Source: an uncultured virus (IMG/VR IMGVR_UViG_3300009873_000013) (lineage: Duplodnaviria > Heunggongvirae > Uroviricota > Caudoviricetes). Taken from it: a stretch of DNA of 20,000 nucleotides. Where the stretch lies: the IMG/VR virus record IMGVR_UViG_3300009873_000013, positions 49,471-69,470 of that record; one strand, given 5' to 3'. The translations under genes were made by a program, and so were the position numbers. The notes beneath the pieces were generated by a model. It worked only from the letters and a program-made list of their open reading frames with translations. It searched no databases and was not told the origin of the DNA. Numbering within the stretch: position 1 is the stretch's first letter; each line of letters begins with the position of its first letter. This document shows positions 4,847 through 16,933 of the stretch, piece by piece.

Positions 4847-5506
4847 ATGCTCACCCGACGCTCTCTCCTGCAGGCCGGCGCCGCGGTGCTCGCCCTGCCG
4901 GCCACCCTGCTGGGCAAGACCAGTCGCAATCAGATCTCCTACAACGACTCGACCGGCGCCCTCGACCTCGCCACGGTCGGCGAGTTCCACCCGCCTCGCG
5001 CGCCGTTCGAAGTCGGCGTCACCGACTGCTCGGAGTACCTCTTCGACACGAAGACTGGCGACGTCTTGTTCCCGCTCTATCGCGAAGAAGGGACGCCGCC
5101 GCTTCTCACGCGCGACACGGCTGCCTACATCTTCAACATGATGAAGAACCGCGGCCTGGAGGTCCCGTACTTCTGCACGCCGATGCACAAGGTTCTAGCA
5201 ACGGGACGGGACGTCGGTAACGCCAAGGACGAACTGGCCCGCCTGCAAAACGTCAAAGCCGAGGCGTACGGCTTTCGACCCATGACCGACATGGAGTTCG
5301 TGCAGTACCACGGTCTCCTCGAGGTCGCCCGTCGACGGGAAGCGTTTTACGAAGAGTGGATCGAACACCGGGCGATCTACGACCTTGCCAACGGCCTACT
5401 CGTCCTCTTCGACAAGACCAACTGGCGGATCGCCTTCGCGCTCCTCGTGCCGAAGGAGCCCGCGCGCACGCTGATCACCCGTTGCCTCTACATCCAAGAC
5501 CATTGA
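4847..5506 (+). CDS. Hypothetical protein with Tat-like signal (TRRSLL + hydrophobic stretch)
   Basis: GAGGAG SD; MLTRRSLLQAGAAVLALPATLLG. Confidence 0.75.
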   Translation: MLTRRSLLQAGAAVLALPATLLGKTSRNQISYNDSTGALDLATVGEFHPPRAPFEVGVTDCSEYLFDTKTGDVLFPLYREEGTPPLLTRDTAAYIFNMMKNRGLEVPYFCTPMHKVLATGRDVGNAKDELARLQNVKAEAYGFRPMTDMEFVQYHGLLEVARRREAFYEEWIEHRAIYDLANGLLVLFDKTNWRIAFALLVPKEPARTLITRCLYIQDH

Positions 5507-5532
5507 CAGCCCCGGGGCTATCGACATAGACT
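5503..5532 (+). promoter_or_regulatory. sigma70-like promoter
   Basis: TTGACA (5503-5508), 18 nt spacer, TAGACT (5527-5532). Confidence 0.6.
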
Positions 5533-5581
5533 CCCGCCCAAGGAGCCTGGGCGATCTCAAGCGCGGCCGCCCACGCGCCCC

Positions 5582-5643
5582 GCCGCTCTGTGCACGACGC
5601 CGCCCCGAAACGACGTCGCCGCACTCCAGAGAGCGGCTTTTTT
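5582..5643 (+). terminator. Intrinsic terminator-like structure closing a short non-coding transcript
   Basis: GCCGCTCT (5582-5589) pairs with AGAGCGGC (5630-5637), followed by T6; large internal region. Confidence 0.55.
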
Positions 5644-5658
5644 CTTGCGCCCGTCCGC

Positions 5659-5686
5659 TTGACTCGCCTGACAGCACCGGTATTAT
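5659..5686 (+). promoter_or_regulatory. sigma70-like promoter
   Basis: TTGACT (5659-5664), 16 nt spacer, TATTAT (5681-5686). Confidence 0.55.
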
Positions 5687-5719
5687 CACGGCGTGCGCTG
5701 GCGACAGCGTGCCTCGAAC

Positions 5720-5768
5720 AGGAGAGGCGGGCCGAGTGCCTCTACGCTCACCGGCCCGCTTCTTTTTT
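5720..5768 (+). terminator. Intrinsic terminator/attenuator in the leader of the 5798 gene
   Basis: GCGGGCCG...CGGCCCGC stem followed by TTCTTTTTT. Confidence 0.6.
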
Positions 5769-5772
5769 GCGC

Positions 5773-5796
5773 TCACCACGCCGGCTGGAGTCTCAC
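5773..5796 (+). repeat. Bipartite RBS motif copy 1 (TCACCA...GGAGTCTCAC)
   Basis: TCACCA 5773-5778; GGAGTCTCAC 5787-5796; GTG 5798. Confidence 0.85.
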
Positions 5797-5797
5797 C

Positions 5798-6097
5798 GTG
5801 GCCAGCAACTTTGACGAGCACGGCTGCCACATCGCCAACGACAAAGAGTTCTACTTCCAGTGCTCCCTCTCCCGCCGCCGCGACGACGGCACCATCATCG
5901 TCCAGGTCGCCTGGATTCCCGCCAAATTCGCCGAAGCCGGTCGCGTCCTCAAAATCAAAGCCACCGACGGCTCCTGGGTCGACGGCTGGACCGTCACTAG
6001 CGTCGGCGCCGGCATGGTCGGCGTCCCCGACGTCCGCAAAGGCCGCCGCCAACACCGCAAACAAACAGGCGACAGCCTGCCCAAGGAGAGAAAATGA
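5798..6097 (+). CDS. Hypothetical protein (99 aa)
   Basis: GTG start after GGAG within the motif; in frame with ORF 5693..6097; ATGA overlap with the next gene. Confidence 0.7.
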   Translation: MASNFDEHGCHIANDKEFYFQCSLSRRRDDGTIIVQVAWIPAKFAEAGRVLKIKATDGSWVDGWTVTSVGAGMVGVPDVRKGRRQHRKQTGDSLPKERK

Positions 6098-6300
6098 TCT
6101 CGAGACGCTCGCTCCTCGCCGCCCTCCCCTTCTGCGGCTGGCTCAAGCCGGCGCCCGTCGACGGTCTCGCCGACAAAGTCGAGTCGTGGATGGGCGAAGC
6201 ACGTAGGTTCGACGAAGTTTGGGCCTTCCTCGACCAGTTCCAACACCGCGTCGGACTCATCGAGCCGCCCATCTACGGCAACAACCCTCACGCCACGTAG
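6094..6300 (+). CDS. Small protein with Tat-like N-terminus (SRRSLL)
   Basis: AAGGAG SD; MISRRSLLAALPFCGWL. Confidence 0.65.
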   Translation: MISRRSLLAALPFCGWLKPAPVDGLADKVESWMGEARRFDEVWAFLDQFQHRVGLIEPPIYGNNPHAT

Positions 6301-6587
6301 AAGCACGACCGAACCGACGGCTCGCGCGGCGATCGCTTCTCACCGGCCGCCATCTTGCGCAGGTCCACATCGCGATCGAGCAGACCGCCGCACGCACTGC
6401 ACCGTGGCGCCGAACCACGCGTCGATGAAAACAGGTGCCGCAGCGTGGGCTCCTTCGCCCCACAGTCCCGGCACGTCGCCATCCCAGGACCACGCCGACG
6501 CCCACCCTTCCGCCGCTTCTTGTGCTTCCGCTTCCGCGGACCACCGTGCGGCTTGTGATAGCTCGCGTGCTGAATCTTCCCCATCAT
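6288..6587 (-). CDS. Basic Zn-ribbon protein (CRDC...CSAC)
   Basis: MMGKIQH..., K/R-rich tract and two CxxC pairs; start position uncertain. Confidence 0.55.
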   Translation of the reverse strand: MMGKIQHASYHKPHGGPRKRKHKKRRKGGRRRGPGMATCRDCGAKEPTLRHLFSSTRGSAPRCSACGGLLDRDVDLRKMAAGEKRSPREPSVRSCFYVA

Positions 6588-7261
6588 GCCACCCAAAATT
6601 TCTCGACCGGCCATAACCCCTTTGTTGTTGCAGACGACGACTCGCAAGATAGCACGCCGCCCGCCCACCGACGACAAAAATTCCGTTGACGACGTTCGCC
6701 AAGAATCCTAATCTCACCTCCCGCCGACCTGACGGTGGGCCGGCTCACAGCCCCAACCCGTGGCAACGACGAAACACCGTCAGCCGTTCCTGTTCGGGTG
6801 TAGGCGGACAAGACGTCACGCGCGACGTACTCCGCCGTGCCAGAGAAAAGCCCCAGCGAGCTCGGGCCTGGCGTGTAATAAACCGTAAAGTGCACTCCCT
6901 GGAACCGGCCGATCGCTCCTTCTTTTACTAAGCGGTCGTGCGCGCCTGCCTCTCTACCGGTCAACTCGACCAAAGCGCTCGACATCAACGTCAATGCGCC
7001 CGCTTTCGTGACACCCTTCTCACTCCCGCCCAGACTCGAACACCCTCCAGACCACCCATCTCCACGACCACCAGCGCGAAAAAAATCTTCGCGGGGAACG
7101 TAATCACGGTCGAGGGGGGGCCGACGGGGCCTCCCGGTGGTCGATCGGTCCACGCAACGTGTTGCGGCCTATAGTCTTGCGTTGCGTCGACCGAACGGGG
7201 GTAGAAATGGCACGTTTGGCACACCATTTGCGAATGCATGCGGCCGCTATTCACCCCATCA

Positions 7262-7596
7262 TGTGGCCACGTGTGACGCGTAGGCGTGGCATCGTCCAGC
7301 AAGCGCGGTCTGCGGCCGAGTCGAGACCGCGGCGCGATCTATCCAGTCGCCACACGAGTAACGCTATTGAGTCGACACCATAGTGGCGCTTGCGTGGCGT
7401 GGCGTATGTCGTGGCATGGTAGGCGCTTGTGTGGGGTGATGCGTGGCGTAGGCGTGGCACGTGGTCAACGCGCGCCGTCTGCGCGATTCCCGAAAACCAA
7501 GTGTCCAAATTGGACCGCGGCCGGATTCTTTGGGCTACGTTCTATCGGCGTGACAGCGCCGGAGTTATCGGCGTGGCGTTGTGCTGTCACGTGGTC
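7262..7596 (+). repeat. Cluster of (C)GTGG(C/T) short direct repeats, including 2x GCGTAGGCGTGGCA
   Basis: About ten GTGGC/GTGGT cores between 7262 and 7596; the 14-mer is at 7277 and 7446; no credible ORF. Confidence 0.55.
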
Positions 7597-7672
7597 CTGG
7601 TCGAATTGACCGACGGCGGATGATTGAACTCGGCGGACGGTTTCCGATACGGTATCTGGGACCGTTTCACGT

Positions 7673-7695
7673 TTCACCCGTTTGCGGAGTCTCAC
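7673..7695 (+). repeat. Bipartite RBS motif copy 2
   Basis: TTCACC 7673-7678; GGAGTCTCAC 7686-7695; ATG 7699. Confidence 0.85.
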
Positions 7696-7698
7696 ACC

Positions 7699-8217
7699 AT
7701 GGCAGCGACGACAACTTTTCAGCTCACGACCGATACGACGATCGACGATGCGGCCGGCGCGTTGCGCGCTGGTCTCGTGCCGCTTGAAGCGTTCCTGGAA
7801 TGGCAGGCAGGCTACGTGAAGCGCCAGTCTGCGGCATCTGGCCGAGTGCGCGTCACGGTCTCGCCGAAGGGCATGATCGTACTCAATGGCGTGGTCGGCA
7901 AAGGCGAAGGATTCGCGCCCAATTTCACGCCGCGCGTTCTGGCCGATCTTCTGGACAACGCGGACGCCTTGATCGGTGCCGTTGTCGAGAATGCAGACAA
8001 GTCGCACGCGGCGGACGCCACGGTCAAGGATCTGAACCCCGCGTGGAAAAAGGCGAAGGATTCCAAGGCGAGCGAAGAGCAGCTCGCGAAGATCCCCAAG
8101 CTGGTCCCCGTGGCGCATCCGCGGGCAGGCAAGCCGGTGCTGAAGTACGGTAGCGCGGCGGAGCTGGCCGAGACCGTGAAGCGCCTTCAGGCGATTCGCG
8201 CCAAGCTGGTCGGCTAA
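7699..8217 (+). CDS. Hypothetical protein (172 aa, A/K-rich)
   Basis: ATG 7699 after the motif RBS; in frame with ORF 7624..8217. Confidence 0.8.
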   Translation: MAATTTFQLTTDTTIDDAAGALRAGLVPLEAFLEWQAGYVKRQSAASGRVRVTVSPKGMIVLNGVVGKGEGFAPNFTPRVLADLLDNADALIGAVVENADKSHAADATVKDLNPAWKKAKDSKASEEQLAKIPKLVPVAHPRAGKPVLKYGSAAELAETVKRLQAIRAKLVG

Positions 8218-8223
8218 CGCGGT

Positions 8224-8285
8224 CCGCACAACGCGCCGTGTGCCGCGCGAGTCTCCGCGGTCACCATCGCACGGCGCGCTTGCGG
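8224..8285 (+). promoter_or_regulatory. Intergenic RNA structure displaying GAGTCTC (loop) and TCACCA (bulge)
   Basis: CGCGCCGTGTG 8232-8242 pairs with CGCACGGCGCG 8268-8278; inner CCGCG/CGCGG stem with loop CGAGTCTC 8248-8255; TCACCAT 8261-8267 unpaired. Confidence 0.6.
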
Positions 8286-8297
8286 TTTGCGTTTCTC

Positions 8298-8319
8298 TTC
8301 ACCACGATAGGAGTCTCAC
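8298..8319 (+). repeat. Bipartite RBS motif copy 3
   Basis: TTCACCA 8298-8304; GGAGTCTCAC 8310-8319; ATG 8321. Confidence 0.9.
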
Positions 8320-8320
8320 C

Positions 8321-8575
8321 ATGAAACTGCGCTGGCGGAAGGTGTTCGACGGCTGCTGGCATGGGTTTGCCGAAGGTAACCCGAATGCCGTGGCCGAAGT
8401 CGAACAGTTCCCCTACGGACGGAAGCTGTGGTCAGCGGAGATCTGCGGCTACGGGCGTCTGACGTGGGGCTCTTACGGTCTGTTCACGTTTCGGGAAGCG
8501 AAGGCACTCTGCGAGCGCAGGCTGCCGGAGTTCTATCCCGCTGTCACCACGAAGGAGTCTCACCCATGCGACTGA
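8321..8575 (+). CDS. Hypothetical phage protein (84 aa)
   Basis: MKLRWRKV...TFREAKALCERRL; motif RBS upstream. Confidence 0.75.
   Translation: MKLRWRKVFDGCWHGFAEGNPNAVAEVEQFPYGRKLWSAEICGYGRLTWGSYGLFTFREAKALCERRLPEFYPAVTTKESHPCD
8544..8563 (+). repeat. Bipartite RBS motif copy 4 (inside the 3' end of the upstream gene)
   Basis: TCACCA 8544-8549; GGAGTCTCAC 8554-8563; ATG 8566. Confidence 0.9.
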
Positions 8576-9252
8576 GCGAGAAGTACCGGCCCAAGACGCT
8601 GGAAAGTGTCGTGGGTCAACCGTGCGTCGTGCCGCTGCGGCGATTCGTCGAGCGGCCCTACGCCTGCTGTCTGTTGTTCGAGGGACCGCCAGGCTGCGGC
8701 AAGACCACGTCGGCCCTGGCACTGGCGGCCGAGTTGGGTTGCCTCGACGAACTGTCGGGGCTGCACGTGGTCACCAGCACCGAGCTGACGATCGACCGCT
8801 GTCGTGACCTGTTCGAGAGCACGTTGCGACTGAAACCCATGCTGGGCGACGGCTGGCGGGTGCTGGTCGTCGAGGAACTAGAGGCGCTGACCAGTGTGCA
8901 GGTGCAGCGGTTCCTCAAGGTGGCGCTCGAGCAGCGCTTGCCGGACCGATGCGTCGTGGTGGCCACGTCGAACGGCGCCGGGGCCATCCAGAAGGCCGAC
9001 AAGGCGCTGCTGCAGCGGTTTCGTATCTACCGCTTCGAGGCCGGCAAGATGTTCGCTGCTGCGGCCGAGGGCTACCTGGCCGACGTGTGGCAGCGTGAGA
9101 CCGGCCAGGATCGTTTGCCGGTCGGCTGGCGGACGTGGGGCACCGACGGCGACGGCGAGTTCTCGCTGCGAGTGGCGCTCGATCGGCTGCAATGCGAAGC
9201 CGAACTGTGCGACGTGCGAGAGCACGGTCCCGCGGCGAGGTGCGTGGCATGA
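8566..9252 (+). CDS. Clamp-loader-clade AAA+ ATPase (RFC small subunit/DnaX/RarA-like)
   Basis: N-terminal 'LSEKYRPKTLESVVGQ', Walker A GPPGCGKT, Walker B VLVVEE, sensor-1 ATSN, 'ALLQRF' Arg finger; 228 aa, lacks a collar domain. Confidence 0.85.
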   Translation: MRLSEKYRPKTLESVVGQPCVVPLRRFVERPYACCLLFEGPPGCGKTTSALALAAELGCLDELSGLHVVTSTELTIDRCRDLFESTLRLKPMLGDGWRVLVVEELEALTSVQVQRFLKVALEQRLPDRCVVVATSNGAGAIQKADKALLQRFRIYRFEAGKMFAAAAEGYLADVWQRETGQDRLPVGWRTWGTDGDGEFSLRVALDRLQCEAELCDVREHGPAARCVA

Positions 9253-9683
9253 TCCACACGAAGCTACCACGCACGACCGGTCGAAGGCCCACAGCCCGAC
9301 GCGTCGATGCTGCTGAGAAGCATCTGGCGCAAGAGCGTGATCGGTACGCGCTGTTCGCCGAAGAGGTCGCGGCAGAGCAGCCAACGGCGGTCGAGCGCGT
9401 GGAGGGCTTCGACGCCGGCTTCGAAGCATGGTGGCAGGAGCATCGCTTGAAACATGCCCAACTGTGGCGCAAGGCTCGAGCGTTGTTCCATGCCTTGCCT
9501 ACCGAGCAGCGTCGTGCCGCCGACTCGTACTGGCGACGCCGGGTCTACCCGCTGGATCCGATCTACCTGATCGCTCTTGTACGACGGATCGCCGACGGGA
9601 GCTTCGACGTCGTGAAAGAGGATGCCGAGATCGATCGACTACGCCGACTCGGCGAAGCCCACAGAAAGGGGATTGTGCCTTGA
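9249..9683 (+). CDS. Hypothetical protein (144 aa)
   Basis: ATGA overlap with the ATPase gene; MIHTKLPRTTG... Confidence 0.7.
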   Translation: MIHTKLPRTTGRRPTARRVDAAEKHLAQERDRYALFAEEVAAEQPTAVERVEGFDAGFEAWWQEHRLKHAQLWRKARALFHALPTEQRRAADSYWRRRVYPLDPIYLIALVRRIADGSFDVVKEDAEIDRLRRLGEAHRKGIVP

Positions 9684-9838
9684 GTGACGACACTTTCACG
9701 CTGAAGAACGATCCGCCGCGGCCGAAGCCGTGGCGTGCTGAAGATGAACCGTGCCGCCAGCGCGTGCTCCTCGAGGGGCTCGACTGCTGCGCCGGCCAAC
9801 TGAACCTATTCGAGGAGGAACCAAGTGATGGCTCGTAG
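9680..9838 (+). CDS. Small acidic protein with QLNLF putative beta-clamp-binding motif
   Basis: TTG start overlapping the previous stop (TTGA), AAAGGGG upstream; ...AGQLNLFEEE... Confidence 0.55.
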   Translation: MSDDTFTLKNDPPRPKPWRAEDEPCRQRVLLEGLDCCAGQLNLFEEEPSDGS

Positions 9839-10133
9839 GTCGAACGCGGATGTCTGGGCTGACTCCATGCTGCGTCAAATCAGGTCTCAGCTTTGGACTG
9901 TTTGCTCTGACACAAAGCCCAAATCCAAGAAGCTCGTGGAGCGGCTCGAACGCGCCTATACCCAGGCAAACTTCGATCCAGACATCGAGTGCCCGGAGGG
10001 CTCATGGTCGCTTGACCAGGCCGAAGTTCTCGACGCGATCAGGCGGCTGATCTGCAGTGAGCGTGACCTGCCGATCCTGACGCATGACGAAATCGAAGCC
10101 AAGTATCGACAGGAGGACCAACGCGATGAGTAA
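9828..10133 (+). CDS. Hypothetical protein (101 aa)
   Basis: GAGGAGG SD upstream of ATG 9828. Confidence 0.7.
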   Translation: MARRSNADVWADSMLRQIRSQLWTVCSDTKPKSKKLVERLERAYTQANFDPDIECPEGSWSLDQAEVLDAIRRLICSERDLPILTHDEIEAKYRQEDQRDE

Positions 10134-10521
10134 CCACACACCGGGACCGTGGCAGGTTCTCGACAGGGACCTCGGCGTAAATGGAGGGCGAGGGCTCTAC
10201 ATCGTCAGTGAGCGTGAAGTCACGCCGACGCTGGCCAAAATTCGAGACGTTGGCAGCGCGACCGAGGCGAATGCGCGGTTGTTCGCATGGGCGCCTGAAC
10301 TGCTGCAGGCGTGCGACTGGGCGGACACGGCGTTCGCCGTGCTGAACCTTGGCGGCGACGAGATCACGCCCCAGGCACGTGCAGAGATGCGTGATGCGTG
10401 GGCGCTGGTCAACCACGCCATGGCGAGGGCCAAGGGACGCGACGATCCGTTCGCCGAGGTCAACCCGGAAGTCTCGAAGGCCGCGATCGAGAAGGCCCGG
10501 CGCGAGATGTCGGGCGCCTGA
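10126..10521 (+). CDS. Phage 'HTPGPW' family hypothetical protein
   Basis: MSNHTPGPW ... EANARLFAWAPELLQAC, the common phage pattern 'HTPGPW...ANARLIAAAPELL'; AGGAGG SD. Confidence 0.8.
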   Translation: MSNHTPGPWQVLDRDLGVNGGRGLYIVSEREVTPTLAKIRDVGSATEANARLFAWAPELLQACDWADTAFAVLNLGGDEITPQARAEMRDAWALVNHAMARAKGRDDPFAEVNPEVSKAAIEKARREMSGA

Positions 10522-10543
10522 GTCACAACCGAGGGGCAACCTA

Positions 10544-10564
10544 TTCACCACAAGGAGTCTCACG
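10544..10564 (+). repeat. Bipartite RBS motif copy 5
   Basis: TTCACCA 10544-10550; GGAGTCTCACG 10554-10564; ATG 10565. Confidence 0.9.
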
Positions 10565-11128
10565 ATGGCGAAACAGAAGTCACTCTATCACCGGCCCGTG
10601 CCGGCCATCCTGGTCCGCGTCGAGAAGCCGAACCGCATGTACGGCGGCTGCGATTGCTTCCACGTCTACGGCCGCTTCGTGATCTACGACTCGTCGAAAC
10701 GCGAGGACGTCACGTTCGTCCACAAGTACGGCGACAAGTGGCCGCCCAAGGAAGACCTCGACCTGGAAGATCTCTTCGTCTGGTCGCAGGGGGATACGGA
10801 TGCCGAGCCCGATCGGACCCGGCTCTATGGCTGGGAGCTCCGCTACAAGCGCTACTCCTGCACGCTCTCGGACGTCGAGCGGATGCACAGCACGCTCAAG
10901 TTCCTCGATCGCGGCCTCGATCGCGAGATTGCGCGGACTGGTCATCCGCAGACGTTCGGCGCCTGGATGTGTTACGTGGCCCTGGCGTCGAAGGCCGAAG
11001 GGTTCGTGTTCGAAGGGGAGCACGGCTACTCGATCCTGACGCCCGGCGAGTCGATCCGCCGCATCGACAACCTGACCTACGAGCAGTTCCGTTGCAACCA
11101 GCGTAAGGCCGAAGAAGCGGCCGCTTAA
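10565..11128 (+). CDS. Hypothetical protein (187 aa)
   Basis: ATG 10565 after the motif RBS; in frame with ORF 10349..11128. Confidence 0.8.
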   Translation: MAKQKSLYHRPVPAILVRVEKPNRMYGGCDCFHVYGRFVIYDSSKREDVTFVHKYGDKWPPKEDLDLEDLFVWSQGDTDAEPDRTRLYGWELRYKRYSCTLSDVERMHSTLKFLDRGLDREIARTGHPQTFGAWMCYVALASKAEGFVFEGEHGYSILTPGESIRRIDNLTYEQFRCNQRKAEEAAA

Positions 11129-11140
11129 CGTCCACACGTA

Positions 11141-11187
11141 GCCCGCGAAGCGCGTCACCGGGATTCGCCTCCCGGCGCGGGCCTTTT
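11141..11187 (+). terminator. Intrinsic terminator-like branched hairpin
   Basis: GCCCGCG 11141-11147 pairs with CGCGGGC 11176-11182; CCGGGA/TCCCGG inner stem; TTTT 11184-11187. Confidence 0.55.
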
Positions 11188-11190
11188 CCG

Positions 11191-11218
11191 TTGCATCGGG
11201 CGACGGTGTCGCTATAAC
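11191..11218 (+). promoter_or_regulatory. sigma70-like promoter for the methyltransferase-helicase module
   Basis: TTGCAT (11191-11196), 16 nt spacer, TATAAC (11213-11218). Confidence 0.5.
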
Positions 11219-11242
11219 TCGACAACTAAGGAGCTATCTCGC

Positions 11243-12250
11243 ATGCGCCACGCAGGACGCATGAAGGGCGGGTTCTACCCCGCGCCTTCGGACGCCGTTG
11301 CGCTCGCACTGCGCCATCTACGGCCGCCGAGCGAGCCAGACGCCCCCTTTGCCATCCTCGACCCGTGCGCCGGCGAGGGCGAGGCGATCGGCCAGTTGGC
11401 CGATGGTCTCGGCTGCCGGCCTGACTTGGTCCACGCGATCGAGCTCGAGTCGAGTCGAGCGGAGAAGTGCCGCCAGCGCTTGCCCGAAGCGCAGCTTCTC
11501 GCGCCGGCCAGTTACTTCGGTTGTCGCATTCGCAGTTGGTCCTTCTCGCTCGTGTGGTGCAATCCACCCTTCGACGACGAGATCGGCGGCGGCGAACGCG
11601 TCGAGGGTCAGTTCTTGGGTTCGGCCCTGGCGCTCCTGGCGCCCAAGGGCATCCTCTGTCTGGTCTGCCCTGAGCGGGTCTGGCGCGACGGCGCGATCCG
11701 CCGCGTGCTCTTGACCTGGTTCGACGACGTCTCGTGCGTCGAGTTCCCCGCGGACTGCCGGCGGTTCGGCGAGGTGATCGTATTCGGCATCAAGCGCCGT
11801 GAGATGACCAACCCGGACAAGCGGACTTGGGGCGACCTGGTCACTGGTCGGACGGAGTACACGCTGCCGAAGAGCAACGGGCCGCGTGGTCTGTGGCGGA
11901 AGATCGAGCTCACTCCCGAAGAGCTCGACACAGCGTTCGCTCAGTCACCGCTGCGACGGATGCTCGAGCCACCACCCGAGCGACCTCTACCGCGTCCGCC
12001 GATGGCGTTGGGCAAGGGACACCTGGCGTTGCTCCTGGCCTCGGGGCACCTCGACGGGCTGGTCTGCCCGCCGGGCGAACCACCGCACGTCGTCCGCGGC
12101 ACGGCCAAGAAGGTCGAAGAGGTGACCGACGTCGAAGAGGACGAGAGCAAGGGGACGCGGACCACCAAGACCACCTACACCGAGCGGATCACGTTGACCG
12201 TTCGGGCCGTCGGCGCCGATGGCGTGATCCACACGTTTGCTCAGGAGTAA
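11243..12250 (+). CDS. DUF6094-like class I SAM-dependent (N6-adenine-type) DNA methyltransferase
   Basis: 'GFYPAP', motif I 'LDPCAGEG', motif IV 'NPPF', C-terminal 'PPMALGKGHLALLLASGHLDGLV' typical of this family; AAGGAG SD. Confidence 0.85.
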   Translation: MRHAGRMKGGFYPAPSDAVALALRHLRPPSEPDAPFAILDPCAGEGEAIGQLADGLGCRPDLVHAIELESSRAEKCRQRLPEAQLLAPASYFGCRIRSWSFSLVWCNPPFDDEIGGGERVEGQFLGSALALLAPKGILCLVCPERVWRDGAIRRVLLTWFDDVSCVEFPADCRRFGEVIVFGIKRREMTNPDKRTWGDLVTGRTEYTLPKSNGPRGLWRKIELTPEELDTAFAQSPLRRMLEPPPERPLPRPPMALGKGHLALLLASGHLDGLVCPPGEPPHVVRGTAKKVEEVTDVEEDESKGTRTTKTTYTERITLTVRAVGADGVIHTFAQE

Positions 12251-12254
12251 CCCC

Positions 12255-12815
12255 ATGATCGACGGACCACGAGCAGTCGTCACGATCGGCGAGCAGTGTT
12301 ACACGCTGCACCTGGACGCCGTGGCGATCCAGGACACATCGCAATACAGCCAGCCGATCCAGATTCTCTCGGTCGCCGGCCCAGCCACCAGCGTCAAGGC
12401 AGTGACGGCCGGCTTCCAGACCAACCGCGCTGGCGTGTCGCAGGTGACGTTTCACGACGTCGAGGGACGCAAGCCGTTCCGCGGACACCGCGGCTACGAG
12501 CCCTACAACTGCTACAAGCACCGCCTGGGCCTCGACACGTGGCATCTGGTGGTCATCAGCACCGACCAGAACCTGCTGCTGACCGTCAGCGACGAGGCGA
12601 TCTGGCGGCACCTCACGAGCGATCGCTACACGACGCCGCTCTTACGGACCTGGATGCCGTGGCTGGTATCCGAGCTCCGCGAGAAGGGGCACGTGCGAGA
12701 GCACCAGTGCGTCAACTGCCAGACAGCGCACCTCTACCTCACTGAAGGCAAGCTCGACGAGATCGTGTCGTTGGGCATCAACCGCGGCGAGCTGCGCATG
12801 GAAGCCGCCGCCTAA
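12255..12815 (+). CDS. Hypothetical protein of the methyltransferase-helicase module
   Basis: AGGAG SD; contains 'TTPLLRTW'; located between the DUF6094-like gene and the helicase. Confidence 0.75.
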   Translation: MIDGPRAVVTIGEQCYTLHLDAVAIQDTSQYSQPIQILSVAGPATSVKAVTAGFQTNRAGVSQVTFHDVEGRKPFRGHRGYEPYNCYKHRLGLDTWHLVVISTDQNLLLTVSDEAIWRHLTSDRYTTPLLRTWMPWLVSELREKGHVREHQCVNCQTAHLYLTEGKLDEIVSLGINRGELRMEAAA

Positions 12816-12834
12816 CTACCGAAGGGTCAAACGC

Positions 12835-13497
12835 ATGAAGAAACGCTTTCGAGCGGTCGACCTGTTCTGTGGTGCCGGTGGCACCACGACCGGGGCGATC
12901 CAGTCTGGCCACGTTGAGGTTGTGGCCGCGATCAATCACTGGCGCGTGGCCTGCCTCAACCACGGGCCAGGTCATGTCGTCGTGCCCTGGATCTACCAGA
13001 TCATGGGCCGCGGCGCCGGTCGTCACATTCCGCCAGAGCAACCACTGCCGACGATCATCGCGCAACGCAACTGTTTCGGAGTCGTGGCGCCGTTCTTGAT
13101 CGATGTTCACAACAGGCGTCGCGACGATACGACGACCAGCGTCGACGATCCGATGCCGACGATCGTGACGAAGCCTGGCAACTCAGTCTGCCTGCCGTTC
13201 ATCACGAAGTACAACTCGAACGGCGGCGCTGAGTCGGTCGAACAGCCACTCTCGACGGTGACCACGAAGCACCGCCACGGCCTGGCGATCGTGCACCTGA
13301 TCGAGACCATGAACGAACTGGGGATCGCCGACATCGGCTTCCGCATGCTCGACGTCGATGAGCTCGCGGCCGCCCAAGGTTTCCCTGTCGGCTACGACTT
13401 GCACGGCAGCAAGGCTGAGCAAATCAAGCAAGTCGGCAACAGTGTCCACACGGCCGTCGCTCGTGCGCTCTGTGAAGCGATCGCGACCGCGGACTGA
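12835..13497 (+). CDS. C5 cytosine methyltransferase homolog lacking the catalytic core (in-frame internal deletion; possibly a pseudogene)
   Basis: Motif I DLFCGAGG, motif IX RMLDVDELAAAQGFP and motif X QIKQVGNSV are present; no catalytic (S)PxC/PC and no ENV motif; three 'xPL/MxTI/V' repeats. Confidence 0.8.
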   Translation: MKKRFRAVDLFCGAGGTTTGAIQSGHVEVVAAINHWRVACLNHGPGHVVVPWIYQIMGRGAGRHIPPEQPLPTIIAQRNCFGVVAPFLIDVHNRRRDDTTTSVDDPMPTIVTKPGNSVCLPFITKYNSNGGAESVEQPLSTVTTKHRHGLAIVHLIETMNELGIADIGFRMLDVDELAAAQGFPVGYDLHGSKAEQIKQVGNSVHTAVARALCEAIATAD

Positions 13498-13509
13498 AAG
13501 GAGACCACC

Positions 13510-13761
13510 ATGCCCAAGACTGAGTGCCGCCATTGCGTCGAGTGCGAAGGGATGTCACACCACTGGATCGACAACCCCGACTTCGGCAACGACGAAGCGC
13601 CGGAAGAGTCGCGCAAGTGGCCGGTCGTCTGCAAACACTGCGAGACGTTCGGTGACGAGTGCTGGGAGTGCCACGGCACAGGAACGGAATACGAGAGCAG
13701 CTTACACGACGACGAAGTCGAAGAGTGCCCAACCTGCGGAGGAGAAGGTTACATCCAGTGA
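13510..13761 (+). CDS. Small Cys-rich Zn-finger protein (DnaJ-like CxxCxGxG repeats)
   Basis: CVECEG, CKHC, CWECHGTG, CPTCGGEG; AAGGAG SD. Confidence 0.75.
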   Translation: MPKTECRHCVECEGMSHHWIDNPDFGNDEAPEESRKWPVVCKHCETFGDECWECHGTGTEYESSLHDDEVEECPTCGGEGYIQ

Positions 13762-13778
13762 CCGACCGATCAATCGTT

Positions 13779-13796
13779 TTCACCACACGGAGTCTC
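13779..13796 (+). repeat. Bipartite RBS motif copy 6
   Basis: TTCACCA 13779-13785; GGAGTCTC 13789-13796; ATG 13799. Confidence 0.85.
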
Positions 13797-13798
13797 TG

Positions 13799-15943
13799 AT
13801 GCTCGAAGAAATCACCAACCTGGAGGGCTACATGGCCCGCTACGGCACGCTCCTCGGCGAGCAAGCCCAAGCGGCCGTGCATCCCTTACACGTGCCGGGG
13901 AAACATCCGCCGGCGGGCGTCATCAGTCTGCGCGAGCCGTTTGAAGCGCAGGCCCACGTCATCGCCGCGTCCACCAAAGGCCTCGGCGAGCACAAGTCGC
14001 TCACGATCTGCGGAGAGTGCGGCGTGGGCAAGACGCTCTGCGGCATGCTCACCGTCGACAACCACGCCGGCGTGAAGCCCTACCGAGCGCTCGTGTTCTG
14101 CCCGCCCCACCTGGTCGGCAAGTGGAAGCGCGAACTCGAAGAGACGATCCCCGCCTGTCAGGCCACGATCATCGACGACTATCGCCAGGTCACCCGACAC
14201 AACTGGCGGCAGAAGCCGACCCTGCCCGAATGGTGGATCGTCTCGAACAACCGGGCCAAGCTCGGCGCCAAGTGGCGTTCCTCTTACACGACGCGTCCCA
14301 CGCCGCCTGGCGTGGCCTTCTGCACCCACTGCGATCACCCGGTCTTGAAGAAGGACAGCGAGACCCAACAGCTCGTGCCCATGCCGCTCGAGGAGCTCGA
14401 CAAGAAGCGGCTCTTCTGCGAGGAGTGCGGCAGTGCCCTGTGGACTTACACCCACGATCTCGATCGCTGGCCCGTGGCCACCTACATCCACAAGCACCTC
14501 AAGGGCGTGTTCCGCTACCTGATCGTCGACGAATGCCACGAAGAGAAGGGCGAGGACACCGCTCAGGCCAACGCGATGGGCTCGCTGGCCTCGGCCTGTC
14601 GCTACGTGATCGCCATGACCGGCACGCTGATCGGCGGCTACGCCGACCATTTGCGGACGCTCCGGTTTCGCCTCTCGCCGACGTCGCTGGTCGAGGAGGG
14701 CTTCGGCTGGTCCGACCGGATGCCGTTCAACGAGCGCTACGGCCGCATCGAACGCAAGGTGACCACGAAGGAGGACCTGGGCAGCGGCAAGACCAACCGC
14801 CAAAGCCGCGGGTCGAGCCAGCGGACGGTGAAGTACGTCCGCCCGGGCATCGTGCCCACGTTCTTCGGTCGTCACCTGATGGGCAACACGGTCTTCCTGG
14901 GCCTCGAGGAAGTGGCCGACAACCTGCCGTCGCTGACCGAAGAGGTCGTGCCGGTCGCCATGGACTCGGAGCAACGGTCCGAGTATCGGCGGATCGAGGA
15001 GCTGCTGACCGCGGCGCTCAAGCAAATGGTCGCCAAAGGGGACAAGCGGCTCCTGGGCGCCATGCTGCAGACGCTCCTGTGCTACTGCGACAAGCCGTAC
15101 GGCTGGGGCGAGATCGGCTACTACGAAAACAGCGACGACAGCGACGCTCGTGTGTGGGTCCCCGTCGTCGAACCAGCCAATCTCGACGCCGATCTGCTGC
15201 GGCCCAAGGAGGCCGAGCTCGTGCGGCTCATCTCGGCCGAGAAGCGGGAGAACCGCCAGACCTGGCTCTTCACGACGATGACCGACAAGCGCGACGTGAC
15301 CGAGCGGATGCAAGTCCTGCTCGAGCAAGCCGGCATCAGCTCGACGATCTTGCGGGCCAACGTCGAGACGAAGAAGCGCGAGGACTGGATCGCCAAGCAC
15401 GGCCCCGAGCACGACTGCATCATCAGCCATCCGCAGTTGATCCAGACCGGCATCGATCTGTTCGACAAGAAGGGCAACTACAACTTCCCGACGATTGTCT
15501 GGTATCTGACCGGCTACAACCTCTTCACCTTGCGGCAGGCCAGCCGGCGAGCCTGGCGGATCGGCCAGCAGCAGCCGTGCAAGGTGCTCTACCTCTACTA
15601 CGAAGAGACCATGCAGGCCCGGGCCATGACGCTGATGGGCACGAAGCTCACGGCGGCCGAGGCGATCGAGGGCAAGTTCTCGGCCGAAGGACTGGCGGCC
15701 ATGGCCGGCACCGAGGGCTCGATGGAAATGGCCCTGGCCCGCTCGCTCGTGAATCAGCTCGACGACTTGGACGCGTCGCGCTGCTGGAAGAAGGTCGGCG
15801 CCAAGGCCTCGCCGGCCCCAGCCATGCCCCAGGCACGCCCCGAGCCGTCGCTCGTGCGGCGTCCGCTGCGGCCCAAGAAGCAGGCCCCGCCCAAACCAGT
15901 GTTCCAGCAAATGTCCCTGTTCGATGACTTGGCGGTCGCGTGA
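13799..15943 (+). CDS. SF2 (SNF2/DEAD-like) helicase with Zn-ribbon insertion (714 aa)
   Basis: Walker A GECGVGKT, DECH, motif III MTGT, 'TGIDL', motif VI QASRRAWRIGQ; CTHC...CEEC insertion; start ATG 13799 at the motif RBS. Confidence 0.9.
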   Translation: MLEEITNLEGYMARYGTLLGEQAQAAVHPLHVPGKHPPAGVISLREPFEAQAHVIAASTKGLGEHKSLTICGECGVGKTLCGMLTVDNHAGVKPYRALVFCPPHLVGKWKRELEETIPACQATIIDDYRQVTRHNWRQKPTLPEWWIVSNNRAKLGAKWRSSYTTRPTPPGVAFCTHCDHPVLKKDSETQQLVPMPLEELDKKRLFCEECGSALWTYTHDLDRWPVATYIHKHLKGVFRYLIVDECHEEKGEDTAQANAMGSLASACRYVIAMTGTLIGGYADHLRTLRFRLSPTSLVEEGFGWSDRMPFNERYGRIERKVTTKEDLGSGKTNRQSRGSSQRTVKYVRPGIVPTFFGRHLMGNTVFLGLEEVADNLPSLTEEVVPVAMDSEQRSEYRRIEELLTAALKQMVAKGDKRLLGAMLQTLLCYCDKPYGWGEIGYYENSDDSDARVWVPVVEPANLDADLLRPKEAELVRLISAEKRENRQTWLFTTMTDKRDVTERMQVLLEQAGISSTILRANVETKKREDWIAKHGPEHDCIISHPQLIQTGIDLFDKKGNYNFPTIVWYLTGYNLFTLRQASRRAWRIGQQQPCKVLYLYYEETMQARAMTLMGTKLTAAEAIEGKFSAEGLAAMAGTEGSMEMALARSLVNQLDDLDASRCWKKVGAKASPAPAMPQARPEPSLVRRPLRPKKQAPPKPVFQQMSLFDDLAVA

Positions 15944-15949
15944 GCGGCC

Positions 15950-15955
15950 TATAAT
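15950..15955 (+). promoter_or_regulatory. -10 box of the sRNA/recombinase promoter
   Basis: Perfect TATAAT 7 nt before the first base of the RNA stem; -35 box not clear. Confidence 0.6.
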
Positions 15956-15962
15956 CAGTTGC

Positions 15963-16054
15963 GAGCGGCCAGCCGGCTAGCGTTGGTGAAGCGCGAATAG
16001 CCCGGGGTGTGACGTGAGACTCCACCTCGGGACTCGCCGGCTGGCCGCTCTTTT
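15963..16054 (+). ncRNA. Candidate c4/CI-like antisense small RNA (three-way junction, two guide arms)
   Basis: Perfect 15-bp closing stem (15963-15977 with 16036-16050) followed by TTTT; arm 1 carries TGGTGAA (15984-15990); arm 2 (CCCGGGGTG/CACCTCGGG) carries GTGAGACTCC (16014-16023); both are complementary to the 7-copy RBS motif. Confidence 0.8.
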
Positions 16055-16073
16055 CACCACACGAGGAGTCTCA
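16053..16073 (+). repeat. Bipartite RBS motif copy 7 (cis target directly after the sRNA)
   Basis: TTCACCA 16053-16059; GGAGTCTCA 16065-16073; ATG 16076. Confidence 0.9.
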
Positions 16074-16075
16074 AG

Positions 16076-16933
16076 ATGCCACGACGAGCGAAGAAGGAAC
16101 GTACCGGCCCCTTCTACTTCTACGGCTACTGCCGCGTCAGCCACGAGAAGTCGACCCAGCAGGGAACCTCGATCGACGCACAGATCGCACAGATCATCCG
16201 CCTGCACGATTACCGCCGAGACCAGGGCAAACTGGAAGGCGTCGAGTGGGGGCCTGTCGGCTGGTGGGGCGAGAAGCAAGAGGGCGAAGAGTCGAGCGAC
16301 GGGTTCTTCGTCGACCAGTCGGTGAGCGCTTTCAAGGTGGAACTGGGAGCGCGGCCGGCCGGCCGACGTCTCAACGCCATCTTGCAGCCAGGCGATCACA
16401 TCGCTTTCGCCTACGCCGATCGCGCCGTCCGCTCGATCCGCGACTTCTCGCTGACGATCCACCGCTGGATCGAACGCGGCGTCCGCGTGCACTTCGTCAC
16501 GCCCGACGTCGATCCCACGACGCCCTACGGACTGGCGTTCCTGCAGATGAGCGTGGTCTTCGCCGAGCTCGACAGCCGCTTGAAGAGCCAACGGATCAAG
16601 GACACGTTCGAACAGATGCGGGCCGTCGGCAAGCCGACCAGTGGCGGCCCGAATTACGGCTGGAAGAAGGTCCCGGGCAGCAACGAATGGATTCCCGACC
16701 TCGAGGAGCGGGCCCTGATCGATCAGATGATCTATTGGCGGGACGTCGAAGGCCGAGGCTGGTGCGAGATCGAGGACATGATCGAAGAGCTGCAGGCCCA
16801 GCGCGACGGTCGCAAGCCCTACCCGCGCAACTCGTGCGACCCCAAACGCAAGCGGCGTTACACCCACGAGCAGGTCCGCAAGGCCATCCAACGCTCGGCC
16901 GAGTGGCGGAACAAAGTGCCGGCCGAGGCCTAG
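16076..16933 (+). CDS. Serine recombinase (resolvase/invertase catalytic domain plus short recombinase-like C-terminal domain)
   Basis: YGYCRVS (catalytic Ser), SIDAQ, SAF...RP, DRAVRS, 'FAELDSRLKSQRIKD', 'GGPNYGW'; 285 aa. Confidence 0.9.
   Translation: MPRRAKKERTGPFYFYGYCRVSHEKSTQQGTSIDAQIAQIIRLHDYRRDQGKLEGVEWGPVGWWGEKQEGEESSDGFFVDQSVSAFKVELGARPAGRRLNAILQPGDHIAFAYADRAVRSIRDFSLTIHRWIERGVRVHFVTPDVDPTTPYGLAFLQMSVVFAELDSRLKSQRIKDTFEQMRAVGKPTSGGPNYGWKKVPGSNEWIPDLEERALIDQMIYWRDVEGRGWCEIEDMIEELQAQRDGRKPYPRNSCDPKRKRRYTHEQVRKAIQRSAEWRNKVPAEA

What the first reader, a model, noticed from the sequence alone, without database searches (positions are those of the whole stretch)
15950..16076. Two-armed antisense small RNA complementary to the RBS of seven genes: candidate RNA master repressor
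Seen: TATAAT (15950) is followed by a perfect 15-bp stem (15963-15977/16036-16050) and a T-run. The stem encloses two hairpin arms carrying TGGTGAA (15984-15990) and CGTGAGACTCCA (16013-16024). These are the reverse complements of TTCACCA and GGAGTCTCAC, the two halves of a motif over the SD of the genes starting at 5798, 7699, 8321, 8566, 10565, 13799 and 16076 (8-11 nt continuous pairing to arm 2). I saw the antisense orientation only here. Known: phage P1/P7 c4 RNA and P4 CI RNA are three-way-junction RNAs that use two short single-stranded segments on bipartite targets, but they act on sites in their own operon. Inference: here one RNA would silence a dispersed regulon (AAA+ ATPase, helicase, recombinase, early ORFs) in trans, acting as an RNA-based immunity or timing switch. 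No CI-like protein repressor is evident in this window.
Basis: partly seen in the sequence, partly recalled or inferred. Interest (0 to 1): 0.93.

Follow-up and report, generated by a model that had tools for sequence, protein, structure and literature searches.

The report
Two-loop anti-RBS RNA hairpin in phage
An uncultured phage of planctomycete bacteria carries a very stable branched RNA hairpin whose two loops are complementary to a two-part ribosome-binding cassette shared by seven of its replication-module genes, so it may be an RNA that shuts these genes off together, but this rests on sequence alone.

Summary
Window 15963-16050 folds into a 15-bp stem carrying two arms (-61 kcal/mol, z -5.7). 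Loop 1 (GGUGA) and loop 2 (CGUGAGAC) are complementary to TCACC and GUCUCAC(G). These are the invariant cores of a cassette, TCACCAC-N2-7-GGAGTCTCAC-N1-4-start, found at 7 of 76 called genes of a 69.5-kb phage genome. All seven lie in the replication module.

The only antisense copy in the genome is this hairpin. Chance is about 0.0004-0.006 under a first-order Markov model. An accessibility-aware pairing score ranks the seven leaders 1-4, 6, 7 and 9 of 72.

The regulatory reading is not shown:
- No Rfam C4-family hit, no RNA data, a perfect -10 without a -35, and only four U after the stem.
- Syntenic relatives (helicase 58% identical) have other hairpins at this position, without a repeated cassette or anti-RBS loops, so covariation cannot be tested.
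- An unrelated phage shares the cassette without any antisense copy.
- Seven related loci have their own repeated RBS motifs without one.
- A Cro/CI-type HTH protein exists outside the window.

Best reading (about 0.4): a trans-acting, two-kissing-loop antisense repressor. It works like c4, P4 CI or OxyS but belongs to none of these families.

The parts
15950..15955 (+). Perfect -10-like hexamer TATAAT, 7 nt before the first base of the outer stem. It may be the promoter of the RNA or of the recombinase mRNA.
   Evidence: Read. The sigma-70 consensus scan did not report it because no -35 with a 16-18 nt spacer is present.
15963..16050 (+). Branched RNA hairpin: a 15-bp perfect outer stem (15963-15977 / 16036-16050) enclosing two arms.
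   Evidence: MFE -61.1 kcal/mol, z -5.68, 0 of 200 shuffles as stable; the centroid equals the MFE. No Rfam family at gathering score. No tRNA or tmRNA.
15980..15994 (+). Arm 1: a 5-bp stem with the 5-nt loop GGUGA (15985-15989). UGGUGAA is complementary to box A (UUCACCA).
   Evidence: Structure and unpaired probabilities. It is the only TGGTGAA-type antisense copy of box A in the window on this strand at this site.
15999..16034 (+). Arm 2: an 11-bp interrupted stem, a 2-bp extension and the 8-nt loop CGUGAGAC (16013-16020). CGUGAGACUCCA is complementary to box B (GGAGUCUCAC) and its flanks.
   Evidence: It is the only GAGACTC on the + strand of the window and the only antisense copy of GGAGTCTC in the 69.5-kb genome.
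16051..16054 (+). Short U-run (UUUU) directly after the outer stem. It runs into box A of the recombinase leader.
   Evidence: It is below the terminator scan's threshold of 5 T in 8, and the site is not listed.
5772..5800 (+). Cassette 1: CTCACCAC-N7-GGAGTCTCAC-C-GTG, gene 5798 (99 aa, unknown). It follows two promoter-like sites and a hairpin with a T-run.
   Evidence: Predicted loop pairing -11.8 kcal/mol.
7673..7701 (+). Cassette 2: TTCACCC-N6-GGAGTCTCAC-ACC-ATG, gene 7699 (172 aa, unknown).
   Evidence: Predicted -9.8 kcal/mol.
8298..8323 (+). Cassette 3: TTCACCAC-N4-GGAGTCTCAC-C-ATG, gene 8321 (84 aa, unknown).
   Evidence: Predicted -11.2 kcal/mol.
8543..8568 (+). Cassette 4: GTCACCAC-N3-GGAGTCTCAC-CC-ATG, gene 8566 (AAA+ ATPase, clamp-loader-like).
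   Evidence: Predicted -11.2 kcal/mol.
10544..10567 (+). Cassette 5: TTCACCAC-N2-GGAGTCTCACG-ATG, gene 10565 (187 aa, unknown). It gives the longest pairing (11 nt) to arm 2.
   Evidence: Predicted -16.0 kcal/mol, rank 1 of 72.
13779..13801 (+). Cassette 6: TTCACCAC-N2-GGAGTCTCT-G-ATG, gene 13799 (SNF2/ResIII helicase, 714 aa).
   Evidence: Predicted -7.2 kcal/mol.
16053..16078 (+). Cassette 7: TTCACCAC-N4-GGAGTCTCA-AG-ATG, gene 16076 (small serine recombinase, 285 aa). It starts 3 nt after the hairpin.
   Evidence: It is the weakest predicted trans pairing of the seven, -5.8 kcal/mol.
8232..8279 (+). Intergenic hairpin holding an eighth, sense-orientation pair of box cores in reversed order (GAGTCTC 8249-8255, TCACCA 8261-8266). 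It could be an extra docking site or a relic.
   Evidence: regex and fold.

Best explanation
The 15963-16050 element is made as a discrete RNA of about 90-100 nt. It would arise either from the TATAAT at 15950 or as the stable 3' end of the helicase transcript.

Its rigid 15-bp stem presents two loops. Loop 1 (GGUGA) kisses the TCACC core of box A. Loop 2 (CGUGAGAC, extending into UCC by opening a weak 2-bp helix) pairs with the SD-spacer segment GGAGUCUCAC of box B.

Binding both boxes of the cassette occludes the Shine-Dalgarno sequence and start region of seven genes of the replication module: four unknown proteins, a clamp-loader-like ATPase, an SNF2 helicase and a serine recombinase. This represses their translation together. 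It would act either as feedback or timed shut-off during infection, or as an RNA layer of immunity in a lysogen.

Shown: the structure prediction, the complementarity, its statistics, and the restriction of the cassette to these genes.

Inferred: that the RNA exists as a separate species, that the pairing occurs, and that it represses.
For: - Stability is far beyond shuffles: z -5.68, 0 of 200.
- The only antisense copy of GGAGTCTC in 69,470 nt lies in loop 2, with the anti-box-A 29 nt upstream in loop 1. Joint chance is 0.0004-0.006.
- The two anti-boxes are in the order A'...B', the opposite of what a single inverted duplication of a cassette would give.
- The loops match what is invariant in the targets. 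TCACC is present in 7 of 7 and GGAGTCTC in 7 of 7, while flanks and the 2-7 nt spacer vary. The conserved TCTCAC after GGAG is not needed for an SD; the 69 other called genes use GGAG/GAGG-type SDs with unrelated spacers.
- With opening energies included, the seven leaders rank 1, 2, 3, 4, 6, 7 and 9 of 72 leaders (-16.0 to -5.8 kcal/mol). The 65 lowest-ranked average -1.0, sd 1.7.
- In the fold of 15955-16079 the recombinase RBS stays open, so the hairpin does not simply sequester it by nested pairing.
- The logic has precedents. c4 RNA uses loop-exposed complementary segments at the RBS of its target (passages of PMC12197685). P4 CI RNA silences P4's own replication genes (passage of PMC4825925). 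OxyS binds fhlA through two kissing complexes, one over the RBS (passages of PMC2946933).
Against: - No expression evidence of any kind.
- The TATAAT lacks a -35, the stem is followed by only 4 U, and the consensus scan lists neither a promoter nor a terminator there.
- Loop 1 offers only 5-7 nt, and half of anti-box B is paired in arm 2 (opening cost 5.8 kcal/mol).
- A naive duplex score without accessibility does not separate the targets well: ranks 1, 3, 5, 6, 7, 9 and 13 of 72.
- No homologue of the hairpin was found in the helicase-anchored loci fetched by then (L003-L082) or in 50,697 phage records.
- The two syntenic relatives (L067, L068) have other hairpins in the same spacer, without repeated cassettes or anti-RBS loops.
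- The same cassette is used at least 4-5 times by the unrelated phage G001, which has no GAGACTC antisense copy.
- Seven related loci have their own repeated RBS motifs with no antisense copy in the DNA fetched. The cassette's conservation therefore has another sufficient cause.
- The finding was picked out of a very large scan, so a per-genome chance of about 1e-3 is less decisive than it looks.
Confidence: 0.4

Rival explanations
1. The hairpin is part of the recombinase mRNA, either as a 5' leader from the TATAAT promoter or as read-through from the helicase gene. It acts in cis. Loop 2 reaches the box B that lies 15 nt after the stem and forms a pseudoknot, keeping the serine recombinase translationally quiet. 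Complementarity to the other six leaders is a by-product of their sharing the same cassette.
For: - There is no room for a promoter between the stem (ends 16050) and box A (starts 16053). The recombinase must therefore be transcribed through or from just before the hairpin.
- The same layout (-10-like hexamer, hairpin with T-run, cassette, gene) is seen at gene 5798 with the promoter-like site 5659-5686.
- Hairpins occupy the helicase-recombinase spacer in L068 and L067 too.
- Recombinases are commonly kept at low level (general knowledge, from no call).
Against: - Box A starts 3 nt after the base of a 15-bp stem, so it cannot reach loop 1 at the far end without melting that stem (geometry inferred). 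The presence of anti-box A is then unexplained.
- The recombinase cassette is the weakest match of the seven: 9 nt, -5.8 kcal/mol.
- The nested fold leaves the RBS open. Pseudoknots were not modelled.
- The hairpins of L067 and L068 show no comparable complementarity to their recombinase RBS.
Confidence: 0.2
2. It is only a structural hairpin: a terminator, 3' protector or 5' stabiliser between two operons. The complementarity of its loops to the cassette has no regulatory use. It would be either chance found by a very wide scan or a relic of recombination among repeated cassettes.
For: - Strong hairpins precede the cassettes at 5798 and 8321 as well, and these carry no antisense boxes.
- Relatives have hairpins at the same place without anti-RBS loops.
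- The cassette is maintained in G001 without any antisense partner.
- Repeated 'signature' RBS motifs without antisense copies are seen in seven related loci: L004, L006, L010, L043, L047, L073 and G407.
- The scan behind this finding covered a very large number of windows.
Against: - The joint chance is 0.0004-0.006 before requiring that both boxes fall in loops of an intergenic hairpin in the same module. None of the seven related loci with signature motifs shows such a coincidence.
- A single inverted duplication would give the order B'-A', not the observed A'-B'.
- The loops coincide with the invariant cores of the targets.
Confidence: 0.3
3. The element works as DNA. The nested inverted repeats upstream of the serine recombinase gene would be its binding or crossover site (res-, att- or inversion-type).
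For: - Sites of small serine recombinases often lie next to their gene and contain inverted repeats (general knowledge of Tn3/gamma-delta res, recalled, from no call).
- The gene at 16076 matches Resolvase PF00239 (4.9e-21) and PHROG integrase/invertase families.
Against: - No short motif is repeated several times, as it is in res sites. The outer, arm-1 and arm-2 repeats are three unrelated sequences, which is the pattern of an RNA fold.
- A 58-bp segment between 15-bp repeats is too short for known invertase synapses (recalled).
- This reading does not explain complementarity to seven ribosome-binding sites.
- L067 and L068 recombinase homologues have different upstream sequences.
Confidence: 0.05

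Closest known systems
c4 antisense RNA of phages P1/P7 (Rfam C4 and related motifs)
   Same: It is a phage-encoded structured RNA. Short complementary segments, thought to lie in loops, bind around the ribosome-binding site of a target and block translation (passages of PMC12197685; PMC8198154). Recognition is bipartite.
   Different: - No match to any Rfam C4-type model, even at E <= 10.
- c4 acts on one site in its own operon (icd/ant). Here there are seven dispersed leaders across 10 kb.
- The host phylum is Planctomycetota rather than enterobacteria.
- Processing and expression are unknown.
CI RNA of satellite phage P4
   Same: [quoted passage not shown] Here, too, the targets are the replication module.
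   Different: - P4 CI causes premature transcription termination on one transcript (seqA and seqC flank it) and is cut from that leader.
- Here the targets are ribosome-binding sites of seven genes, and no processing signal was tested.
OxyS-fhlA double kissing complex (E. coli)
   Same: Two stem-loops of one small RNA each kiss a separate short site of the mRNA, one covering the RBS (passages of PMC2946933). This is the nearest mechanistic model for loop 1 with box A plus loop 2 with box B.
   Different: - OxyS is a host stress sRNA, Hfq-assisted, and its second site is in the coding region.
- Here both sites are upstream of the start, 2-7 nt apart, and repeated on seven genes.
T4 RegA translational repressor (recalled, from no call)
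   Same: One phage factor shuts off translation of many early mRNAs by recognising a shared element at their initiation regions.
   Different: RegA is a protein. Here the proposed factor is an RNA.
Anti-RBS loops in 3'UTR hairpins (earlier scan finding e1-5641984: the hairpin ending the SSB mRNA of T4-like phages, antisense to the capsid RBS)
   Same: A hairpin at the end of a replication gene exposes a loop complementary to a ribosome-binding site elsewhere in the phage (an AI note, unchecked).
   Different: That case has a single loop, a single target and a different phage group. It was not tested here.

Membership tests
Rfam C4 / c4-2 / c4-a1b1 antisense RNA families | Match to the family covariance model (sequence plus structure) at or near the gathering score | tested here: not met
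   cmscan of the whole window at E <= 1 gave only an M23 match elsewhere. cmscan of 15930-16090 at E <= 10 gave 9 weak matches (7-23 bits, all far below gathering). None is a C4-type family.
c4-like mechanism (antisense block of an RBS by loop-exposed segments) | Two short segments complementary to a bipartite target that includes the RBS, exposed in single-stranded parts of a stable fold | tested here: met
   GGUGA and CGUGAGAC are predicted loops with unpaired probabilities of 0.5-0.9. They are complementary to TCACC and GUCUCACG in the leaders.
c4-like mechanism | RNA present as a discrete species, with translation repressed in trans | not testable with these tools
   Only the source sample holds the DNA, and no RNA holder is listed.
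P4 CI-type immunity RNA | Processed out of the leader of the operon it controls; pairing causes premature termination at flanking complementary sites | not tested
   No processing or termination data. The complementary sites here are RBS cassettes on seven genes, not two flanking sites.
Intrinsic (Rho-independent) terminator | G+C-rich stem-loop with a short loop, followed at once by a U-run (at least 5 of 8) | tested here: not met
   The site is not listed by the consensus scan. The stem is G+C-rich, but the structure is branched and only UUUU follows. The scan does not cover branched hairpins, so weak termination is not excluded.
Sigma-70-type promoter for the RNA | -35 and -10 hexamers with a 16-18 nt spacer | tested here: not met
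   The -10 TATAAT is perfect, but no -35 passes the scan. Two other promoter-like sites in the region (5503-5532, 5659-5686) do pass. Promoter rules of Planctomycetota are not covered by the tool.
Conserved structured RNA (any family) | Homologues with compensatory base changes | tested here: inconclusive
   No homologue was found in the 80 helicase-anchored loci fetched by then (L003-L082), in INPHARED phages or by motif scans of IMG/VR. The nearest helicase relative (76% identity, P0002) could not be fetched as DNA.
Regulon-type shared leader element | Element restricted to a defined gene set and over-represented there | tested here: met
   GGAGTCTC lies before 7 of 76 called genes, all between genome positions 55.2 and 65.5 kb. 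TCACC lies upstream in 7 of 7 against 1 of 65. It is not a host RBS feature: 66 of 401 Planctomycetota genomes have a match, never more than 2 each, and 1 of 31 matches examined in the 30 loci fetched precedes a start codon.

The most novel reading that the evidence does not exclude
The hairpin is a phage-encoded RNA master switch. It is a single RNA of about 90 nt that uses two kissing loops to read a bipartite 'address' placed on the ribosome-binding sites of the whole replication module, silencing it as a unit. That would be an RNA counterpart of T4 RegA or of P4 immunity, in a temperate phage of Planctomycetota. Because an unrelated phage (G001) uses the same address on its own early genes, the RNA could also repress that competitor in trans, giving RNA-based cross-immunity between unrelated phages.
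Probability: 0.12. Interest if true: 0.85.

Novelty: new variant of a known kind. Interest (0 to 1): 0.6.

Why it matters
Known phage antisense regulators (c4, P4 CI, oop, sar) each act on one site near their own gene. One RNA that reads a two-part address repeated on seven ribosome-binding sites would show that a phage can run a translational regulon with an RNA instead of a protein repressor. It would also give a compact, programmable two-loop design.

It would be among the first regulatory RNAs proposed for phages of Planctomycetota, a phylum whose gene regulation is little known. The shared cassette in an unrelated phage raises the testable idea of RNA-mediated interference between phages.

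If the reading is wrong, the case is still a useful warning. Repeated 'signature' RBS motifs are common in this phage group and do not by themselves point to a regulator.

Tried and rejected
- **Expression.** No RNA holder is listed. Only the probable source sample (activated sludge) holds the DNA, and one run guessed to be RNA holds next to none of its words. Laying the three runs gave one identical 21-kb contig and nothing at the hairpin from the others.
- **Close relatives.**
  - The recombinase as query in IMG/VR found none.
  - The exact motif with a 4-nt spacer found none.
  - A looser motif gave more than 118 single, chance-like matches, of which only L142 was real.
  - The stricter motif found only G001 and a 99.9% identical contig.
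  - Helicase profiles fetched 7 + 57 + 16 + 6 loci at 31-58% identity. None has the hairpin.
- **Covariation analysis and a covariance model** were therefore not attempted.
- **Naive duplex energies with whole arms** do not discriminate, because G+C-rich stem bases pair promiscuously. I replaced them with an accessibility-aware score.
- **Genome simulations for the chance estimate** timed out twice. I replaced them with an analytic first-order Markov estimate.
- **Host-RBS explanation** rejected.
That tail is recalled, not fetched.
- **An antisense partner in G001.** The best 10-mer is simply an RBS on the other strand.
- **Anti-RBS loops in the L067 and L068 hairpins.** Best scores were -4.9 and -9.4, the latter a self-palindrome.
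- **tRNA or tmRNA:** none.
- **RNA-guided recombinase (bridge-RNA-like) reading.** I considered it and set it aside. The enzyme is a Resolvase-family serine recombinase, its homologues in L067 and L068 lack such an RNA, and recombination at seven of its own ribosome-binding sites would be destructive.
- **Not used:** Complex prediction, structure prediction and the protein atlas. None bears on an RNA-RNA claim.
Full report
**Setting.** The window is the last 20 kb (49471-69470) of a 69,470-nt IMG/VR virus record with 144-nt direct terminal repeats and 65% G+C.
- Its SNF2-type helicase (window 13799-15943) has 664 relatives at E <= 0.001 among the 8000 candidates scored. The best non-self relative is 76% identical.
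- Of the 16 loci found in species-representative genomes, 15 lie in Planctomycetota MAGs (Pirellulales, Gemmataceae and others), several inside contigs of 137-970 kb. The phage group therefore infects planctomycetes and is at least partly temperate.
- My GC3-based gene calls give 76 genes.
- The right arm (window about 2480-16933, + strand) holds a clamp-loader-like AAA+ ATPase, two DNA methyltransferases, the helicase and a 285-aa Resolvase-family serine recombinase.
- The left arm of the genome holds RecT, YqaJ, RusA, a DnaC/IstB-like ATPase and, at genome 20761-21177, a Cro/CI-type HTH_3 protein.

**The observation.**
- The 132-nt spacer between the helicase stop (15943) and the recombinase start (16076) contains TATAAT (15950-15955), a perfect 15-bp inverted repeat (15963-15977 / 16036-16050), and TTTT (16051-16054).
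- As RNA it folds to -61.1 kcal/mol against -41.3 +/- 3.5 for shuffles (z -5.68, 0 of 200; centroid equals MFE).
- The stem encloses arm 1 (15980-15994, loop GGUGA) and arm 2 (15999-16034, loop CGUGAGAC).
- GGAGTCTC occurs exactly 9 times in the genome. Seven copies sit 1-4 nt before the start codons at 5798, 7699, 8321, 8566, 10565, 13799 and 16076. One copy lies on the + strand in a region of minus-strand genes. One copy is antisense, and that is loop 2.
- TCACC lies 2-8 nt upstream of the GGAG in 7 of 7 of these leaders, against 1 of 65 other called leaders.
- An alignment of the seven leaders shows nothing conserved beyond a T/C-rich run, box A, box B and the start.
- The other 69 genes use ordinary GGAG/GAGG Shine-Dalgarno sequences with unrelated spacers. 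The conserved TCTCAC after the SD is therefore a mark of this gene set.

**Is it more than chance?**
- Under a first-order Markov model of the genome, an antisense 9-mer on the gene strand with TGGTGA within 60 nt has probability 0.006. The 10-mer plus 7-mer actually present has probability 0.0004.
- These figures do not yet count three further facts: both anti-boxes fall in hairpin loops, the site is intergenic, and it lies inside the very module that carries the cassette.
- The anti-boxes are in the order A'...B'. A single inverted copy of a cassette would give B'...A'.
- Two cautions apply. With one mismatch allowed, the plain count of GGAGTCTCA in the window is not above shuffles. And the finding was selected from a very large scan, which weakens any per-genome probability.

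**Would the pairing work?**
- A naive duplex score using whole arms does not separate the targets: ranks 1, 3, 5, 6, 7, 9 and 13 of 72.
- I then charged opening energies of both partners and allowed only contiguous helices in the -35..+12 region. The seven leaders rank 1, 2, 3, 4, 6, 7 and 9 of 72, at -16.0, -11.8, -11.2, -11.2, -9.8, -7.2 and -5.8 kcal/mol. The 65 lowest-ranked leaders average -1.0 (sd 1.7).
- Rank 5 is an unexpected leader at genome 3014 on the minus strand (-10.8).
- Weak points are the 5-nt loop 1 and the 5.8 kcal/mol needed to free the UCC part of anti-box B.
- The variable spacer (2-7 nt) between the boxes suits two independent loop contacts better than one rigid protein or promoter site. 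This is inference.

**What it is not.**
- No Rfam family reaches its gathering score. A search of 161 nt at E <= 10 lists nine generic hairpin matches (7-23 bits) and no C4-type family.
- No tRNA or tmRNA.
- The consensus scan lists neither a promoter nor a terminator at the site. It does list two promoter-like sites at 5503-5532 and 5659-5686, upstream of the first cassette gene.
- The cassette is not a host ribosome-binding feature. Five MAGs holding relatives have 1-4 matches each. Of 401 Planctomycetota genomes, 66 have a match and none more than two. Only 1 of 31 matches examined, in the 30 loci fetched, precedes a start codon.

**Relatives.**
- No homologue of the hairpin was found in the 80 helicase-anchored loci fetched by then (L003-L082) or in 50,697 phage records.
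- Two MAG loci, L067 and L068, keep the helicase-recombinase synteny (58% and 40-41% identity). They have structured spacers, and L068 has a 75-nt hairpin. Neither repeats its recombinase RBS elsewhere, and neither shows notable loop complementarity to its own leaders.
- Several relatives carry other repeated 'signature' RBS motifs: L006 GGAGGATTGC, L004 TTGGAGGATG, L043 and G407 ACAGGAGTC, L010 CAAGGAGC, L047 GAAAGGGG, L073 AAGGAATC. None has an antisense copy in the DNA fetched.
- In L043 the motif is the tail of a repeated promoter-like unit.
- The covariation test cannot be run with what could be fetched.

**An unexpected second carrier.**
- A looser motif scan of IMG/VR gave mostly single chance matches, but one 65.6-kb virus record (G001) stood out.
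- G001 uses hairpin-CTCTC-TCACCAC-A-GGAG(TCTCACC)-ATG at five leaders, three of them within a repeated unit of about 60 nt.
- G001 shares no DNA with G000 apart from the motif. Only one small ORF is similar at the protein level (39% over 69 aa).
- G001 has no GAGACTC antisense copy. The best 10-mer found is an RBS on the other strand.
- The stricter pattern finds no third phage.
- The cassette therefore has some value independent of the hairpin RNA. Why two unrelated phages share it is unexplained.

**Mechanism and rivals.**
- I rate a trans-acting, two-kissing-loop antisense repressor of the seven leaders as the best single reading (0.4). The RNA would be made from the TATAAT or as the 3' end of the helicase transcript. 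It would give either feedback shut-off of the replication module or an RNA layer of immunity.
- A cis-only role on the recombinase leader (0.2) is favoured by the layout, because the recombinase must be transcribed through the hairpin. It leaves anti-box A unexplained: box A starts 3 nt from the base of a 15-bp stem and cannot reach loop 1.
- A purely structural hairpin with fortuitous or relic complementarity (0.3) is favoured by the relatives and by G001. It is disfavoured by the statistics and by the fit of the loops to the invariant cores.
- A DNA site for the recombinase (0.05) does not explain the complementarity.

**Comparison with known systems.**
- In logic it resembles P1/P7 c4, where loop-exposed segments act at the RBS (passages read in PMC12197685 and PMC8198154).
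- It resembles P4 CI RNA, an RNA that silences the element's own replication genes through two complementary sites (passage in PMC4825925).
- It resembles OxyS-fhlA, with two kissing complexes, one over the RBS (passages in PMC2946933).
- It also recalls the protein RegA of T4 (recalled, from no call).
- It is not a member of the C4 Rfam families.
I did not check it.
- I ran two literature searches (listings only). I read passages from one 2025 review of phage-derived sRNAs. In what I saw there was no phage RNA aimed at a repeated RBS cassette. This is not an exhaustive check.

**Verdict.** I class it as a new variant of a known kind, with interest 0.6.

Noticed in passing
G001 = IMGVR_UViG_3300032050_000111 (L212-L215), minus strand, record positions about 9450-15650: A phage unrelated in proteins and DNA shares the cassette TCACCAC-N-GGAG(TCTCACC)-ATG at five leaders. 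Each follows a small hairpin and a CTCTC tract, and three lie within a repeated unit of about 60 nt. No antisense copy is present. Why two unrelated phages share a 20-nt leader is unexplained.
   Followed up: partly
window 7283-7578 (within the gene-poor stretch 6300-7698): Six copies of a GGCGTGGCA-like 9-mer (at most 1 mismatch) lie on the + strand within 300 nt, in a 1.4-kb region without a convincing gene. They look like iterons or operators of an origin or control region just upstream of cassette gene 7699.
   Followed up: partly
window 5503-5532, 5659-5686 and 5722-5775: Two sigma-70-like promoter matches (TTGACA-18-TAGACT; TTGACT-16-TATTAT) are followed by a strong hairpin with a T6 run, directly before the first cassette gene. 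This is a promoter-terminator-gene layout, as in antitermination- or attenuation-controlled early operons.
   Followed up: no
window 8232-8279: An intergenic hairpin contains sense-orientation cores of both boxes in reversed order (GAGTCTC 8249, TCACCA 8261), 50 nt upstream of cassette 3. It could be a second docking site for the hairpin RNA or a relic.
   Followed up: partly
genome 20761-21177, minus strand (L264:761-1177): A 138-aa protein with a Cro/CI-type HTH_3 domain (4.5e-12) sits between the RecT/YqaJ/RusA arm and the structural genes. It is a candidate protein repressor outside the window.
   Followed up: no
genome 15803, 19542 and window 11243 (leaders): A second repeated leader motif, ACAACTAAGG(A/G)G, precedes three genes on both arms of the genome.
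   Followed up: no
L043 (1456, 6376, 18343, 23036) and L262/G407: A related phage repeats a promoter-like unit, GTGTGCTATnnTTGGATAGngAC, containing a palindrome, about 20 nt upstream of its signature RBS ACAGGAGTC. It probably marks repeated early promoters with an operator.
   Followed up: no
genome 3014, minus strand (L263:2340-3014): The leader of a 224-aa gene outside the module scores -10.8 kcal/mol with the two loops (GUCUCACG just after the start; CUUCGCC upstream), rank 5 of 72. It is either an eighth target or chance.
   Followed up: no
L067 12157-12260: The helicase-recombinase spacer of a Pirellulales MAG prophage holds direct repeats of about 22 nt (CTCACGCAGATCTTCGCC-type) and TTGAC-type promoter-like hexamers instead of the two-armed hairpin.
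   Followed up: no
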